From a plasmid: DNA of 64,000 nucleotides. A program made the position numbers. Shown piece by piece: positions 1 to 15,000 of the stretch. Within the stretch, counting starts at the first letter, position 1. Every line of letters begins with the position of its first letter. The stretch lies in the sequence record NZ_CP013691.1; one strand, given 5' to 3'.

Positions 1-3000
1 TACAAATTTATACAATTTTATAATTACTTACAAATATATAACAAATTAAAACTATATAAATTAATTAATTAATTCGAAATACAAAGAAAATCAAACAAAC
101 AAAACATATAAAACATTAATAACCAACAGTTTAATTTTGAATAATTTATATAACAAATTTAATTGTTTTTAATTATATAAATTATTATATTTGCTCATAA
201 CCTTTTAATAAAATACAATATATGAATACCACAAAATTATATGAGTTTAATGTCATTTGTAAGAAAAATGAAGAATATCAAGCCATTGATATAGTATGCA
301 ATTCTAGCGATGCTTCATATCAAATATTAAAGAGAATATTCGATAAAGTATCAATTAATATTAAAGAATATTTCTTCGCTCTCTATGTATCCAATTCAAA
401 CCAAATAATTGGATACAGTATGCTTTCGATGGGTGGAATGGCAGGAACGGTAGTAGATATTAGAATTCTTTTTAGAGAAGCGATATTAGCAAATGCAACG
501 GCAATAATCATCGCCCATAATCACCCAAGTGGAAAACTAACACCTAGTGAAGCTGACAAAAAACTCACTCAAAAAATAAAAGATGCTAGTCTGTTTTTAG
601 ACATCAAACTATTAGACCATCTTATCATCTCAGAATACGGCTATTTCAGCTTCTTAGATGAAGCTTTCCTATAAAATTATAGTACAGACTGCTTATAATC
701 TAATAATGGTTTTAAGCAGTCTTTAAAAGACTTCTTTTCCTTATGAAAAGAAAAATAATTTATCTAACAAATTTAATTCTATATAATATAACAATTTAAT
801 ATAAAACCCTTTTAATAAATATCAAGATGAAAAAAGCATACATTTTAGGCGTATTCTTTCTCTGTCTGTATTTAGGTTTTGCCATATACAAAACCAATAA
901 TAGAGAAGGAATACTCCCCAAGCCTCCCACACCAGCTGAAGCAGCAGTAAAACTGCAAAAGGTAAAAGCGGAGAAAGAAGCCAAATGGCGGAGAAAGAGT
1001 AAACTACAAGATTTAAAAATAGAAGTAGAACAAAATCCAACACTGAAAATAGTTACTTCAATACTTGGTGGTCTAATCCTATTTATTTTACTTGTAAAAT
1101 ATTTTAAAGATCCTAAATTCAAATTTAGTGGCTTGTTCTTTAGCACAGCACTATCAATACTGATACTTTATATAATGTATCGAATATTAATCCACCTCAC
1201 AGCACTATCGCTTGTGGACTACATGTAATAAAATAACCTTTTAATAAAATACAATATGGAATCGAATAATAACAAGCGTGCAGTATATCTCAGAAAGATA
1301 ACTGACGATGTTTTAGCGATAATTGACAAACACAGAGAAGAGAAATCAATTAAAACAAAAACAGAAGCAGTAATTGACATAGTAAAGAAATACCCTATGC
1401 AACAAATCGTACTCGAAAAGCAACGAAAAGAAATTCAAGCTCTCCAATATGAACTTGATATACTACGTGAGCACTTCGAATCATTAGAAAATATAATTGC
1501 CTATATCAAATCAAAATAACAACCTGGTCTACAACAAATCAATTACAAAGAGTCTAGAAATAGGCTCTTTTTCTTTTCGAAAGAACCCTTAATCCTAGTC
1601 AATGAATAATTTTTATTTTGTTGATTACAACTTTCAACAATGCTTTTGAAATCACAAACAATTAAAGCTGTATTGGATTTATCTTCTAATTATTACTACA
1701 TTAAAAACTAAAATAATTATTGCGATTAAAAGAATAGCAAAAACTCCTCCTTTTGCTGCTGTCGGATATTGTCTAGTTCTAGTTGCTTGCATATATTTTG
1801 AGATAGTAATGTAAACTAAGAAAACCAACCCCAAAAAAAAGAAAAAGTTTATTAATGAATATATATTAATGTTTTCGAATATTTTCATGATAAATAAATA
1901 TTAAGGTTTATAATTGTTGTAGTTATCTCTTCATAATGATTATGATAATTGAAGTTATTAGCTTATCAAATATAATACCATAATCTACTCTATACAATAA
2001 AATTACAATTCAATAATTTATCTAACAAATTATTTAAAAAAGGGCGTCAAAACTATAATCTACACTGAGTAATGAAAAGCAACAAATTAAAGATTTAGCA
2101 GCTGTACTGTAGCCGATTTTTGTATACAAACCTCATTATTAGCTAAACAAAAAAAGAGTCCATTGCTGGACTCTCTTCTACTCTTCTACTGTTCTAATAC
2201 ATCAAATATTGTCATTTGGAGAGGAATTTTCTTTTTGGTTTTTGAAATAATTGGATTATTTTCTTTTTTCTCTTCCCTTTCTTTCATTTTCTCAACAAAT
2301 TTTGGGTCATTGGATGCTACTGAAGTTGTAAAATTAACTTTGGTAAATTCCAATTTATCATTGGAATAATACTCTTTAGCCAATCCTATTAATTCAACTT
2401 CATTGATAAATCCCCTTTTCATTTTTTTTACTTCAGAAGCTATGTATTGACAACACTCCTTGATTGTCTTTTTTTCCTTTTGAAAGATAACGGCAAATTC
2501 TTGGTTGTTATCTGCAAGATTGCACAATACCTGTTCTATTGCTAATTCTGTTGGGTTCATATTGTATTTTATTAAAGGTTAGTTATTTGTTGTATTTGAG
2601 GAATACAGTTTAAAAATAGTTTTTCTATCTCTTGATGGTAGATACTTTTGCAATTACCGTATCCTCTTTGCTGAATAATTGTATTAGTGTATAAATCAAA
2701 TTCTATTGTTTCAGTAGGTTTAGAATTGACCTTAGCCGAGAACAGTAATCGACTTTCTTTTTTATAATAGCCATTGACATAAACACAGTGATTTAAAGTA
2801 TTTCCTTCCATTTTAACTTCTTCAATGCTCTTTAGCGGTTCAATGCTAATATTCTTATTTTGAAAATGAAGAGGAAAATATTTTTTTAACCTATCAATAT
2901 ATATCACATTTTCAGCTATCGTTTTATTGATTGTTGCTCCCTCCATTCCCTCTTTTTCTAATTTTTCATATCGTTTCAACATATATTTATTATGTTCTAA

Positions 3001-12000: not shown

Positions 12001-15000
12001 TTTTAGGTACTCTAAAACTAGACTACGAGGGCGTCAAAACTATAATGTAGGACGTCAAAACTATAACAAACGGCGTCAAAACTATAATATAGGGCGTCAA
12101 AACTATACGAGTGCATCAAAACACCTAAAAAAAAAGATTTGACTATTATGTTTTTATTTATTAAAAAGTATAATAAACTTAAAATCAATATTTTACAAGC
12201 AAAAAACGGCGTCAAAACTATAATATTTCATACTTAAATTAGGTCTTATACACCTATTTAAGATACAAAAATCTTTCTTCTTAAAAAAGTTGTAGAAAAC
12301 AAATATACATTTTAAATTATTTAAATAATTTATATAACAAATTTAATTGTATATAATTATTTAAATCACTATATTTGCTTATAACCTTTTAATAAAATTA
12401 TTGATAATGAAAGTAACACATCTAAAAAAAGATTGTATTCAGAAAGAATATACCTACAAAAACCAACTTATAATTGAATTCGAATACTGGAACAATCCAA
12501 TATCATATTGGTGTATCGATAATTGGAAAGTAGAAGAACTCTTTACATTCAAGCATTCGGATATTAATGCATATGACATAACTATTGAAATTAGAAGTGC
12601 TGCAATGCCCAACGGAGAAACCCATTACGGATTATATTGTAATGCTCTTGATACTTCCAAACAACCTTATAGATATCCTGGTTATCATGAGCACACGAGG
12701 GGGAAAGACTACCTCACCGCAAAACAAGGATTACTAATTGAGCTTAATTCGATAATTGAATTTAGATATCCTCAATCTCATTGGAAAGAAATAAGCCAAT
12801 GGATAAAAAACAACTACACAGGGCAAACCACACTATTTTAAGTAACAAATATGAGCAAGAAGGTCTAAAGCCTTCTTGCCCAAAAAAAGTACAATTATGC
12901 ATCAATTTATAATAAGAGCCGTAAAAAATAAGAAAGAGGATCCCTTTGGGATGACAGTTAATGATGAGCACGTATATTTCTTTTGTTCTTCATTAAAAGA
13001 CCTCAAGGCAACTATGAGACATATTAACCCTCCCGGATATAGAATTCATTCAGTTAACTGGTTCTCTAAGTATATAAAGCTATTTAATAATGATTTGACA
13101 TTATATGATGGCTTATTTGGGCATGAAAAATTTAGAATAGTCCGCATTTTTGAAGTTCCTTCAGATTACACTGATTTCAATTACACAAATAAATCTCAAC
13201 AAACATATACTTTAAAAATATTCAATAGAACCGCTTTGCCCTATTTGGAAACTAAATTCAAAACAGTGTAAATAAAATATTATGAGTAATTTATCTCCCT
13301 CTTTTAGTTTATAAAAACGACCGTTTTACTATACTCAATTCTTATTTTACTTTTCTTATCCTTTTCAAATAAAAACAATGTTTTTTAGTTTACATTGTGG
13401 TTTACTTTCAAAAACAGTTTACTATATTTGTAACTAACCTTTTAATAAACTTTTTAATATTTAAATATGATAAACTACACAGACAATCCTACGGGATTAC
13501 ACATTGAGGATTCTTTCACTTATAATAAAGTAGATCCTTTGATCAAACTTTACAATAAATTAAATCTTCTTTTAAAAGACTCCAGCATGATCAAGATTGG
13601 ATGTTATGAAATAACCAGGACCATTCTAGATGCTGAATTAAATATCAGAGTCTATTCAACATCCGATTTTTCTTACTTTGATATTAACAAAGATAATTTA
13701 GGTGATTTCTCTTTTCACACTGAAAGAGGATCTAGAGAAACGTTACTGACAGTTGAACAAGCAATTTTTAATATAACTGAATTGATGGACTAATTTTTCT
13801 TTTCCTCAGAAAACCTTTTAATAAATATCGAATGAAACATCAACATTTATATGACCTAATGGAAATTAGTTCAATCATTTTCCTATGCGTCTTAATAATT
13901 ATTACATTGGCTATCAGCTTAATTAGATATTACAAACGAAAAAAAACAAATTAGATATGAATTCAGTTATTCCCTCGTTGCTTAATTCCCTCATGGAAAA
14001 GTATAAAATCAGTGCAGAAGATGCTGAAATTTTCTTAAATGAAGAATACCAGGAACAAACCTCAAAATCGACGTATGGCGGAGCATCTTATACTCAAATA
14101 ATTCAAATATGGCTTGATACTCTAGCAAAAGGAGAATCAATAAAATTAGATATGTTCCTTATAACAAAATTGCCATTCATAAGAATTCCCCATTTAACAG
14201 CAGTTCTAGGATTTTATGACGTCCTACTCGAAATGAAAGACACTTACAACAGCTCATATATTTCATTTGAAGAGAAGATAGACTCTATCTGCAATACAGT
14301 AGATAATAACATTTATAAAACATACGATAATTTTGTTATTCCTATCAGCCTAAATAAAGTAATTCAATGGGGACTTTACCAAAATTTAGAAGTAGTAAGT
14401 AGCTTTTTCTCTTCAAAAGAAAACAAACATTTTACTTATGACTATAACGATTTTAAAAATGATGAAATAGCAATTAATGAAGCAAAAAAAATATTGGAGA
14501 ACACTTCTATTGATGTCGTTTATTTCAACATTATAGGAACTCCTTTTGCAGAATATGAAAGTGAATCATTATTTACAATTCCTTTCCTAATTGAAAATAT
14601 CCATACTAGAGAGTATAATAAAAATACTGAAGCATATACCTACACTAAACTTAAAGCTGCTTCTGATTTAGAACTCTTGGAGTTTATACTAAATGAAACA
14701 TCACTATATGATCAGCAATCTTCAATGTAACCAATGTTCAATAGAAAGACAATAATCGAAACTATATGATTTTTGGATATGCACGTGTTTCAACTAGTGA
14801 CCAAAATATTGAGTCACAAATTGAAGAATTAAAAAAACTAGGAGCTGAGAAAATCTATTCAGACAAAGGTTCTGGAAAAGATTATAATCGAGTTGAGTTT
14901 AAATTACTTTTAGAAAATTTGCGCGAAGGAGATACATTAGTAGTTACTAAATTGGATCGAATAGGGCGCAATTTAAAGGACTTTATAAGCCTATTTGAAG

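What the first reader, a model, noticed from the sequence alone, without database searches (positions are those of the whole stretch)
140..13951. Standardised expression units: TAnnTTTG -7 box followed by an invariant 21-nt leader placed 0-3 nt from the ATG of at least 10 genes, including genes inside operons
CTCATAACCTTTTAATAAAATACAAT sits immediately before the start codons at 222, 1256, 4785, 12407, 13467 and 13832. On the minus strand it precedes 2560, 3858, 4103, 10120 and 45707.

In the free-standing copies it is preceded by TATATTTG or TACATTTG, a match to the Bacteroidetes -7 consensus TAnnTTTG. The motif is therefore an ~25-nt 5' leader. It also fills whole short intergenic gaps inside operons (e.g. 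3859-3884), which argues for a role at the RNA/translation level rather than only promoter spacing.

An invariant leader shared by unrelated accessory genes is unusual for Bacteroidota, which lack SD-led initiation. It could be a translation enhancer, a binding site for an element-encoded RNA-binding regulator, or a cassette junction left by modular gene acquisition.
Basis: partly seen in the sequence, partly recalled or inferred. Interest (0 to 1): 0.7.

Follow-up and report, generated by a model that had tools for sequence, protein, structure and literature searches.

The report
Repeated start-codon leader on Myroides plasmid
A 14-base word (AACCTTTTAATAAA, followed by an A-rich tail) lies about 20 bases before the start codon of a dozen accessory genes of a Myroides conjugative plasmid, both just after promoters and between genes inside operons; it is most likely a shared mRNA leader for translation in a bacterium that lacks the usual ribosome-binding site, and it is real and restricted to this plasmid lineage, but how it works is untested.

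Summary
The 26-mer is exact twice and the 21-mer four times. The truly shared unit is the 14-nt core AACCTTTTAATAAA: 8 exact copies and 2 one-mismatch copies, against 0.28 expected by chance.

With up to 2 edits, the core precedes 12 of 24 accessory-gene starts, 0 of 18 tra starts and 0 of 15 cargo starts. The first 14 kb of the window is identical to Myroides albus plasmid pMA84474.

- **Promoter-linked copies (five):** each begins 5 nt after a TAnnTTTG -7 box, which is the predicted transcription start.
- **Intercistronic copies (five):** these have no promoter and lie 20-25 nt before the ATG. One overlaps the pcfJ stop codon.
- **Conservation:** the core survives in a diverged relative (RadC 58% identical) whose surrounding non-coding DNA no longer aligns. 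A third relative uses AACCCCTTTAAA.
- **Distribution:** the core was not found in the other Bacteroidota plasmids checked. The exact 21-mer is essentially absent from 185,579 species genomes.

Best reading (confidence about 0.45): a portable 5' leader and translation-initiation region for the plasmid's establishment and anti-defence genes, spread by recombination.

Rivals: a binding site for a plasmid-encoded regulator, a recombination by-product, or an RNA-processing site.

I rate it a new variant of a known kind, of moderate interest.

The parts
199..219 (+). Exact 21-mer leader AACCTTTTAATAAAATACAAT before the RadC/JAB gene (ATG 222). Promoter-linked.
186..193 (+). -7 box TATATTTG, followed by 5 nt (CTCAT) and then the motif.
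   Evidence: sequence; promoter rule from PMC6847099
805..826 (+). Variant AACCCTTTTAATAAATATCAAG before the 133-aa gene (ATG 827). Box A lies upstream; there is no clear -7 box.
1235..1255 (+). Exact 21-mer that fills the 27-nt gap between gene 827-1228 and the 87-aa gene (ATG 1256). Intercistronic, no -7 box.
2561..2580 (-). 21-mer with a one-T deletion before pcfK (AcrIIA9-family; ATG 2560). It overlaps the last codons and the TAA stop of pcfJ.
3859..3879 (-). Exact 21-mer in the 26-nt gap before pcfJ (ATG 3858). Intercistronic.
4104..4128 (-). Variant AACCTTTTAATACATCAAATATAAT in the 31-nt gap before the 72-aa gene (ATG 4103).
4763..4783 (+). Exact 21-mer before the C5 cytosine methyltransferase gene (ATG 4785). 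Promoter-linked.
4750..4757 (+). -7 box TACATTTG, followed by 5 nt and then the motif.
10164..10177 (-). Core at the predicted transcription start of the 131-aa gene (ATG 10120). The 57-nt leader contains a CGGGGAACAGCGGG box.
10183..10190 (-). -7 box TATATTTG (minus strand), followed by 5 nt and then the motif.
12383..12396 (+). Core before the 144-aa gene (ATG 12407). Its -7 box is at 12370-12377.
13436..13449 (+). Core before the 108-aa gene (ATG 13467; 31 nt from core start to ATG). Its -7 box is at 13423-13430.
13812..13831 (+). Core plus tail AACCTTTTAATAAATATCGA before an unannotated 40-aa ORF (ATG 13832). Intercistronic. The whole spacer resembles one in relative L267.
45708..45732 (-). 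Degenerate copy AGCCTTTTAATTAAAATATCACAAT before the first ATG (45707) of a 126-aa ORF. RefSeq annotates a start 33 nt further downstream.
143..163 (+). Box A, AATTTATATAACAAATTTAAT: the upstream promoter module. There are 9 copies in 1-12347. It is the left arm of an AT-only inverted repeat that spans the -33 region.

Best explanation
The motif is the shared 5' untranslated leader and translation-initiation region of the plasmid's establishment and anti-defence genes: radC, pcfJ/pcfK (AcrIIA9 family), a C5 methyltransferase, parA and small unknown genes.

- **Promoter-linked copies.** A standard Bacteroidota sigma-A promoter (box A, -33, TAnnTTTG) starts transcription at or next to the first A of AACC. 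The mRNA therefore begins AACCUUUUAAUAAA... and reaches the AUG after about 21-25 nt.
- **Intercistronic copies.** The same sequence is reused as an intercistronic initiation region inside operons.
- **How it would work (inferred).** It acts on the RNA. The leader has no G and no predicted structure. Its A-rich block (AAUAAAA) falls at -14 to -7, where Bacteroidia ribosomes favour adenines. This block is preceded by a pyrimidine tract (CCUUUU at about -19 to -14). I propose that this tract is an extra contact for the 30S subunit or protein S1, or for an unknown factor.
- **How it spreads (inferred).** The module is portable. Recombination between copies spreads and homogenises it and shuffles the genes attached to it.

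The anatomy, spacing, conservation and restriction to one gene class are shown. Transcription start, the effect on translation and the binding partner are inferred.
For: 1. The core is tied to starts: 10/10 core hits are start-proximal, and it precedes 12/24 accessory starts against 0/33 other starts.
2. All seven intercistronic copies, five in the window and two in relative L267, lie 20-25 nt from the ATG and have no TAnnTTTG upstream. One overlaps the pcfJ stop codon, so it cannot be a promoter.
3. Promoter-linked copies start 5 nt after the -7 box (7 nt in L267 and parA). This matches the 4-5 nt between box and start site in F. johnsoniae.
4. The exact 21-mer places A at -13, -12 and -3, three of the four positive determinants in F. 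johnsoniae. Across the motif genes the frequencies are A-3 0.82 and A-12 0.82, and there is no upstream AUG.
5. Initiation regions with the motif are more open than the other 26 in the window: mean unpaired probability 0.75 against 0.62 (Mann-Whitney p = 0.0013). The leaders fold less stably than their shuffles (z = +1.2 to +1.7).
6. The core is under selection. In L267 (RadC 58% identical; the homologue of the 87-aa protein 38% identical), AACCTTTT(T)AA(T)AAA is kept before the orthologous genes while the flanking non-coding DNA no longer aligns.
7. The motif follows gene orientation on both strands, as an mRNA element should.
8. Portability: one whole intercistronic spacer (TAATTTTTCTTTTC..GAA.AACCTTTTAATAAAT) is shared by the window and L267 between non-homologous genes. 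Within the window, the radC and methyltransferase modules are 98% identical over 84 nt.
Against: - The part that makes the motif distinctive (AACCTTTT) lies outside the known Bacteroidia determinants. On those determinants the motif genes score no better than the tra genes; A-6 is actually rarer (0.18 against 0.58).
- If it were simply a good ribosome-loading sequence, it should recur elsewhere. It does not. It is absent from the other Flavobacteriia and Bacteroides plasmids checked. Random 14-mer hits in IMG/VR and JGI contigs are mostly inside genes: only 5 of 102 (viral) and 6 of 86 (metagenome) look like starts, and they do not cluster.
- In three long-leader copies (gene 10120, parA, and 13467 at 31 nt) the motif stays at the transcription start and not near the ATG.
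- One orphan copy follows a terminator hairpin with no gene behind it.
- Related lineages carry shifted versions of the motif (AACCCCTTTAAA in L271). That pattern is what co-evolution with an element-encoded factor would produce.
- There are no expression data.
Confidence: 0.45

Rival explanations
1. The motif is a regulon tag. It would be the binding site of a plasmid-encoded regulator that switches the establishment genes on together after entry and off afterwards. The regulator could bind DNA, acting as an operator over +1 to +14, or bind the mRNA leader as a translational repressor.
For: - In promoter-linked copies the motif always sits at +1 to +14, a classic repression position, even when the ATG is 57 nt away.
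- It marks one functional class of genes and is absent from tra genes.
- It is lineage-specific, and versions shift between elements while staying uniform within each (AACCTTTTAA against AACCCCTTTAAA).
- T4-5/A4-5 forms a short AT palindrome.
- An 87-aa protein (1256-1519) has a weak match to the NikR N-terminal ribbon-helix-helix region (E = 0.006, below the cut-off). It co-occurs with the motif in the window and in L267, and is itself preceded by the motif.
Against: - Intercistronic copies with tight 20-25-nt spacing to the ATG are not expected for a DNA operator.
- The site is asymmetric and occurs once per gene.
- The 87-aa protein's fold could not be confirmed. The single-sequence model is all-helical and the Foldseek search was uninformative.
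- No candidate small RNA pairs better with motif leaders than with other initiation regions. Duplex energies are -8.9 against -8.9 for the C-module RNA and -8.9 against -10.4 for Flavo-1. No antisense partner exists elsewhere in the window.
Confidence: 0.25
2. The motif is mainly a by-product of how the region evolves. A portable promoter-leader cassette would be copied by homologous recombination or gene conversion, leaving the same junction in front of every acquired gene. It would then function only as an ordinary AT-rich Bacteroidota start region.
For: - The whole accessory region is built from a few repeated parts: box A (9 copies), the leader, a standard terminator (3 copies) and the C module (4 copies).
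- The modules are near-identical over 84-118 nt, including positions unlikely to be functional.
- Identity between the pcfJ and pcfK copies runs 10 nt into the coding sequence (family D16).
- The same spacer is attached to different genes in the window and in L267.
- Another relative (L269/L270) repeats a completely different 37-nt leader.
Against: - Retention of the 10-14-nt core across relatives whose proteins are 38-58% identical, and whose other non-coding DNA no longer aligns, needs purifying selection on the core itself.
- No indel bounded by a motif copy was seen between close relatives. L263, L381 and L382 differ elsewhere.
Confidence: 0.2
3. The motif is an RNA-processing or 5'-end element. 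An endonuclease would cut polycistronic transcripts just before AACC, so that internal cistrons acquire the same 5' end as primary transcripts, for stability or 5'-end-dependent ribosome loading.
For: - In primary transcripts the motif is predicted to be the very 5' end.
- In relatives, and in the orphan copy, it directly follows a stem-loop. This is the arrangement of phage T7 RNase III sites. Examples are L267 669-741, L271 9947-10000 and 11381-11488, and L262 near 3400.
Against: - The window's own intercistronic copies have no preceding hairpin.
- No nuclease candidate was identified.
- Nothing in the sequence distinguishes this from the leader hypothesis.
Confidence: 0.07

Closest known systems
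PeSL (promoter-early stem-loop) mobile regulatory cassettes of T4-like phages (PMC2839356, PMC4122927)
   Same: Both are short composite regulatory modules (terminator hairpin plus early promoter) repeated between small, variable, mostly unknown genes of a mobile element. In both cases they are thought to standardise expression and to act as recombination points for shuffling genes. Here a standard terminator, box A, the -7 promoter and the leader recur throughout the first 14 kb.
   Different: The conserved unit here is the transcribed leader next to the ATG. It also occurs alone between cistrons without a promoter or hairpin. The host is a Bacteroidota plasmid, not a phage. Indels bounded by the module have not been shown between close relatives.
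Bacteroidia SD-independent translation-initiation region (upstream adenines at -3, -6, -12, -13 and low structure; PMC6847099)
   Same: The leader has no G. Its A-rich block falls at -14 to -7, with A at -3, -12 and -13 in the canonical copies. It has no upstream AUG and is predicted to be unstructured.
   Different: The conserved AACCUUUU block at about -21 to -14 is not part of the described determinants. A-6 is usually absent. Tra genes of the same plasmid have the generic features without the motif.
Pyrimidine- or AU-rich translational enhancers upstream of start sites (S1-binding U-rich tracts; the phage T7 gene 10 epsilon sequence UUAACUUUAA). Cited from my own knowledge, not from a tool.
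   Same: Both are short pyrimidine- and A-rich single-stranded elements about 15-20 nt 5' of the AUG in highly expressed mobile-element genes. AACCUUUUAA looks superficially like UUAACUUUAA.
   Different: No binding or enhancement has been tested. Complementarity to the host 16S rRNA could not be checked. Those enhancers act together with a Shine-Dalgarno sequence, which is absent here.
Plasmid-wide operator sets of global regulators, for example KorB operator sites of IncP plasmids (from my own knowledge) and the establishment-gene regulation of the pLS20 family (title seen, PMC8708921, not read)
   Same: One short word is repeated at many promoters of one plasmid and defines a co-regulated set of maintenance or establishment genes.
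   Different: Those sites are palindromic DNA operators at promoters. This one is asymmetric, follows gene orientation and also lies between cistrons.
Frpo/ssi single-strand promoters of plasmid leading regions (PMC11541004)
   Same: Both are repeated non-coding elements in front of anti-defence genes next to the transfer origin.
   Different: Frpo elements are long hairpins that mimic a duplex promoter and lie on the transferred strand only. Here copies lie on both strands, and the promoter module folds no better than its shuffles as single-stranded DNA (z = -0.73).

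Membership tests
Bacteroidota sigma-A promoter (-7 TAnnTTTG / -33) | A TAHHTTTG box 4-5 nt upstream of the transcription start | tested here: met
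   Five window copies, plus parA and two L267 copies, have the box 5-7 nt before AACC. The rule comes from PMC6847099. The box lies upstream of the motif and is not part of it.
Bacteroidota sigma-A promoter (-7 TAnnTTTG / -33) | The motif itself carries the promoter in every copy | tested here: not met
   The intercistronic copies 1235, 2561(-), 3859(-), 4115(-) and 13812 have no TAnnTTTG at the right distance. The gaps are 11-38 nt, and one copy overlaps a stop codon.
Shine-Dalgarno ribosome-binding site | A purine-rich GGAGG-like stretch complementary to the 16S CCUCC, 5-10 nt before the start | tested here: not met
   The 21-mer contains no G. G frequency is about 0 from -22 to -5 in the motif genes.
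Bacteroidia upstream-adenine initiation region (PMC6847099) | A at -3, -6, -12 and -13 | tested here: inconclusive
   A-3 is 0.82, A-12 is 0.82 and A-13 is 0.64, but A-6 is 0.18. Non-motif genes of the window score similarly.
Bacteroidia upstream-adenine initiation region (PMC6847099) | Low secondary structure and no extra AUG near the start | tested here: met
   Unpaired probability is 0.75 against 0.62 (p = 0.0013). There are 0 upstream ATG in 11 leaders. The leaders fold less stably than their shuffles.
PeSL-type mobile regulatory cassette | A composite terminator stem-loop plus promoter, repeated between small variable genes | tested here: met
   A standard terminator (3 copies), box A (9 copies) and promoter-leader modules (84 nt, 86-98% identical) are present.
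PeSL-type mobile regulatory cassette | Insertions and deletions between close relatives have their breakpoints in the cassette | tested here: inconclusive
   Close relatives L263, L381 and L382 differ at other places. The distant relative L267 has the same modules attached to other genes.
Frpo/ssi single-strand promoter | A stable long hairpin in single-stranded DNA that recreates the promoter, with all copies on the transferred strand | tested here: not met
   The single-stranded DNA fold of 130-225 is -7.9 kcal/mol, z = -0.73 against shuffles. Copies lie on both strands.
Integron attC / gene-cassette junction | An imperfect inverted repeat with RYYYAAC...GTTRRRY at the 3' end of cassettes, and an IntI integrase nearby | tested here: not met
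   The motif has no such inverted repeat and sits at the 5' side of genes. Only a serine resolvase (14766-15428) lies next to the region.
Any described RNA family (Rfam 15) | A match to a covariance model at the motif | tested here: not met
   The only hit in the window is Flavo-1 at 4563-4644, which does not overlap any copy.
Trans-acting small RNA target | A partner RNA encoded by the element with extended complementarity to the motif | tested here: not met
   No 9-mer complement occurs outside the copies themselves. Duplex energies of the candidate RNAs are no better for motif leaders than for other initiation regions. Partners encoded on the host chromosome could not be tested.
Host-wide generic start context | The same word before housekeeping genes of the host | tested here: inconclusive
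   The exact 21-mer has 3 hits in 185,579 species genomes, none in Myroides and two of them inside genes. The core is absent from tra and cargo genes and from 10 Bacteroidota chromosomal loci. A Myroides chromosome could not be scanned for the 14-mer core.

The most novel reading that the evidence does not exclude
AACCUUUUAA plus the A-rich tail is a dedicated, sequence-specific recruitment signal. It would act as a functional substitute for the Shine-Dalgarno sequence, read by the Bacteroidia 30S subunit, by protein S1, or by a factor encoded on the plasmid. This lineage of Flavobacteriia mobile elements would use it to get anti-defence and establishment proteins made immediately after entry, from both 5'-proximal and internal cistrons.
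Probability: 0.15. Interest if true: 0.8.

Novelty: new variant of a known kind. Interest (0 to 1): 0.5.

Why it matters
Bacteroidota do not use Shine-Dalgarno pairing. Apart from a few favoured adenines and low structure, it is not known what makes one of their mRNAs translate well.

Here a 10-14-nt word has been kept by selection about 20 nt before the start codons of a defined gene set, and it works in two settings: at the 5' end of a transcript and between cistrons. That makes it a ready-made, compact test case. A handful of reporter constructs would show whether a sequence-specific enhancer exists in this phylum. If it does, it would also be a useful standard part for engineering Flavobacteriia and Bacteroides.

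The finding also bears on plasmid biology. In Enterobacterales, leading regions are known to be tuned for fast expression of anti-defence genes, through single-strand promoters and codon adaptation (PMC11541004, PMC13478746). This region may be a Bacteroidota counterpart that achieves the same with standardised promoter, leader and terminator parts. Finally, the host plasmid carries many resistance genes (sul2, aadS, blaMYO-1, ere(D), erm(F), blaOXA-347).

Tried and rejected
1. **Collection scans with the core.** The exact 21-mer in genome contigs gave 3 hits, with no relatives. The hits were mostly inside genes and no contig held two start-linked copies. The L271-type word AACCCCTTTAAAAA behaved the same way. 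These scans therefore did not enlarge the family.
2. **PcfJ homologues.** They are about 30% identical and sit in phages without the motif.
3. **Relaxase homologue at 36% identity (L383/L384).** No motif.
4. **Nucleotide searches of plasmid and phage collections** with the region or the module returned only the plasmid itself.
5. **Small-RNA partner.** Flavo-1 and the repeated C module were tested as partner RNAs and rejected. The C module also shows no conserved fold.
6. **Single-strand (Frpo-like) promoter.** Rejected.
7. **Alternative promoter inside the motif.** I considered a leaderless mRNA, a sigma-70 -10-like TAAAAT and an ECF-type -35 AAC. I rejected all three by inspection. Either the hexamers do not fit the Bacteroidota consensus, or the start site would fall inside the coding region.
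8. **Pairing with the 16S rRNA 3' region.** ACCUUUU could pair with GGAAGGU. I rejected this on general knowledge, because that segment is the helix 45 stem and loop. It was not computed on the host rRNA.
9. **Integron-like junction.** Rejected, because there is no inverted repeat and no IntI integrase.
10. **The 87-aa candidate regulator.** It has no Pfam or PHROG family and only a sub-threshold NikR N-terminal match. The structure model and fold search were uninformative.
11. **Sampling the host chromosome through IS copies.** This returned Bacteroides-like and other genomes, and no identifiable Myroides sequence.

Full report
**Where the window comes from.** Window 1-14000 is 100% identical to Myroides albus P34 plasmid pMA84474 (NZ_CP102755.1, positions 4275-18270). 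The same proteins are also recorded from M. odoratimimus. The rest of the window is the same element, but it is not collinear with that record in the resistance island. The element has a Bacteroidota-type transfer operon at 46129-63701 (traM, TraG-like ATPase and others).

Just outside the window, between its end and its start on the circle, lie several more genes: an SLT gene, a DUF5712 relaxase, a primase and parA.

The first 14 kb encodes a RadC/JAB protein, PcfJ, PcfK (annotated as AcrIIA9-family anti-CRISPR), a C5 cytosine methyltransferase and many small proteins of unknown function. By position next to the relaxase operon, and by gene content, this is probably the leading or establishment region. 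That is an inference; oriT was not mapped. [quoted passage not shown]

**The observation.** The 26-mer is exact twice and the 21-mer four times, with a fifth copy carrying a 1-nt deletion. What is really shared is the core AACCTTTTAATAAA. It has 8 exact and 2 one-mismatch copies, against 0.28 expected by chance.

Every copy is oriented with a gene and lies upstream of its ATG. With up to 2 edits the core precedes 12 of 24 accessory-gene starts, 0 of 18 tra starts and 0 of 15 cargo starts (Fisher p = 4e-6). Two further copies lie on the same plasmid outside the window. One is in the parA leader. The other is an orphan copy directly after the SLT terminator hairpin.

**Two classes of copy.**
- *Promoter-linked copies* (radC, methyltransferase, 12407, 13467, 10120; also parA). 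TAnnTTTG is followed by exactly 5 nt in the window (7 nt in parA) and then AACC. In F. johnsoniae the transcription start lies 4-5 nt after the -7 box (PMC6847099). The motif is therefore predicted to be the first 14-21 nt of the mRNA. In this class the distance to the ATG varies: 22-24, 31 and 57 nt.
- *Intercistronic copies* (1235, 2561(-), 3859(-), 4115(-), 13812). There is no -7 box, the gaps are 11-38 nt, and the distance to the ATG is 20-25 nt. The pcfK copy overlaps the last codons and the stop codon of pcfJ.

The second class excludes a purely promoter-related role.

**Conservation.**
- Relative L267 (a metagenome contig) has a RadC 58% identical and a homologue of the 87-aa protein 38% identical. 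It has four copies of AACCTTTT(T)AA(T)AAA, lying 21-22 nt before ATGs or right after a -7 box. This includes the orthologous radC and 87-aa genes. The surrounding non-coding DNA is diverged or unalignable.
- One whole intercistronic spacer is shared by the window (before ORF 13832) and L267 (before the homologue of the 87-aa gene), although the flanking genes are unrelated.
- L271 (RadC 48% identical) has AACCCCTTTAAA before four consecutive genes.
- L269/L270 (RadC 58% identical) repeat a different 37-nt leader twice.

Within the window, whole promoter-leader modules are 86-98% identical over 84 nt. Identity between the pcfJ and pcfK copies runs into the coding sequence. So there is selection on a 10-14-nt core, and on top of that recent copying or gene conversion within an element.

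**Distribution.**
- The exact 21-mer occurs three times in one genome per species for 185,579 species. Two hits are inside genes, and none is in Myroides.
- Chryseobacterium, Flagellimonas and Bacteroides plasmids that carry radC show no over-represented upstream word.
- Random 14-mer hits in viral and metagenome collections are mostly inside genes and never cluster.
- Ten chromosomal loci reached through an IS copy have no hit.

The motif is therefore not a general Flavobacteriia start context. A Myroides chromosome itself could not be scanned for the core.

**Properties as an initiation region.** The leader has no G and no upstream AUG. Its AAUAAAA block falls where Bacteroidia initiation regions are A-rich. 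Canonical copies place A at -13, -12 and -3. Predicted openness is higher than for the other starts in the window (0.75 against 0.62; p = 0.0013), and the leaders fold less stably than their shuffles.

However, tra genes also have the generic adenines. The distinctive AACCUUUU block lies outside the described determinants. I propose it is a pyrimidine-tract contact for the 30S subunit, S1 or another factor. This is an inference from general knowledge of S1 and from the statement in PMC6847099 that mRNA around -14 to -11 lies near S1.

**Alternatives examined.**
- Rfam has no family at the motif.
- There is no antisense partner, and neither the nearby Flavo-1 RNA nor the repeated C module pairs preferentially with motif leaders.
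- The promoter module is not a stable single-strand hairpin, and copies lie on both strands, so it is not Frpo-like.
- A regulator site remains a serious rival. The motif occupies +1 to +14 of every linked promoter, even with long leaders. It tags one gene class. It shifts in concert between lineages. A possible ribbon-helix-helix protein co-occurs with it, although that fold could not be confirmed.
- A recombination by-product also remains possible. The region is assembled from a few repeated parts: box A, the leader, a standard terminator and the C module. This is much like the PeSL cassettes of T4-like phages (PMC2839356, PMC4122927). No breakpoint inside a motif copy was seen between close relatives.

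**Verdict.** This is a real, statistically robust, lineage-specific cis element. It is best described as a portable 5' leader and initiation region shared by the establishment and anti-defence genes of a Myroides conjugative plasmid and its relatives.

| Explanation | Confidence |
|---|---|
| Acts on the mRNA at translation initiation | about 0.45 |
| Regulator binding site | about 0.25 |
| Recombination by-product with only generic function | about 0.2 |
| RNA-processing site | about 0.07 |

It is a new variant of a known kind (repeated regulatory cassettes of mobile elements; SD-independent initiation regions). I found no description of it in the literature searched. Interest is moderate. 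It would be high if reporter assays showed a sequence-specific enhancer in a phylum that lacks Shine-Dalgarno initiation.

Noticed in passing
window 4563-4644 (+): There is a match to the Rfam family Flavo-1 RNA (RF01705), 43.5 bits against a gathering score of 42. It lies in the non-coding stretch about 100 nt upstream of the methyltransferase promoter module, inside the plasmid's accessory region. Its function is unknown. It shows no preferential pairing with the leader motif.
   Followed up: partly
window 2024-2130, 6774-6880, 8295-8401, 9611-9717 (all +); array 12030-12107 and 12208-12222: A roughly 107-nt 'C module' (TTAAAAAGGGCGTCAAAACTATAAT...GTAATGAAAAGCAACAAATTAAAGA...TTGTATACAAA) occurs four times, always on the + strand and always after a box A. 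Its 15-nt heart GGCGTCAAAACTATA also forms a tandem array at exact 21-bp spacing. It looks like iterons, a centromere or operator sites. I found no conserved RNA fold.
   Followed up: partly
window 143-163, 757-777, 4437-4457, 4707-4727, 6741-6761, 8258-8278, 9575-9595, 10213-10233(-), 12327-12347: Box A (AATTTATATAACAAATTTAAT) has nine copies upstream of both the leader-type promoters and the C modules. Together with TTATATAAATT about 19 nt downstream it forms an AT-only inverted repeat across the -33 region. This is a likely operator for a common regulator.
   Followed up: partly
window 1533-1572, 8195-8234, 9512-9551: A standardised terminator hairpin (AAAGAGTCTAGAAATGGACTCTTTTT) is reused after three different genes. 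At 8197-8314 and 9514-9631 it is part of a 118-nt composite repeat (terminator plus box A) that is 91% identical.
   Followed up: no
window 10121-10177 (-); L262:9722-9778 (-) (parA leader, outside the window); L267:1-26 (-): A long-leader variant is shared by parA and the 131-aa gene. It consists of the motif followed by ATATCAA..CGGGG(G/A)ACAGCGGG..CTGAAC, 57 nt in all, and its beginning is also present in relative L267. No significant fold is predicted. Its role is unknown.
   Followed up: partly
L262:3383-3396 (-), outside the window; also L381:6555 and L382:6149: An orphan copy of the motif lies directly after the terminator hairpin of the SLT gene with no ORF behind it. It is followed by about 1 kb of conserved non-coding DNA containing TTATAATAATTTCGACA inverted repeats, a candidate origin or oriT-type region.
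   Followed up: partly
NZ_CP102755.1 1-14500 against 69900-84474; window 18.7-33.5 kb: The deposited plasmid record repeats its first roughly 14.5 kb at its end, which is probably an over-circularised assembly. The window's resistance island has four copies of a 300-aa plus 383-aa ORF pair (integrase plus IS91-family transposase in the record), where the record has two. The window therefore comes from a variant of the element.
   Followed up: partly
L269:725-761 and 1594-1630 (relative; RadC 58% identical): A different standard leader (acagaaacgcaactgaataaaaaYagcgtattatatt, then ATG) is repeated before radC and another gene. Reusing one leader for several genes may therefore be a habit of this group of elements, not a property of one sequence.
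   Followed up: no
L271:8648-11488: Besides AACCCCTTTAAA, the word CTACCACA recurs in hairpin loops and leaders of the same four-gene block, next to an Acb2/Tad1-like gene and tRNA genes. This is probably another element-specific regulatory word.
   Followed up: no
window 11826-11893 and 11720-11790: There are 34-nt tandem repeats (TATATTTTCCTTATTATAATGGTGTTTAC...) and repeated AAAATAAAACTAGGAAAAATAAA units in the non-coding DNA upstream of gene 11715(-), next to the 21-bp iteron array.
   Followed up: no
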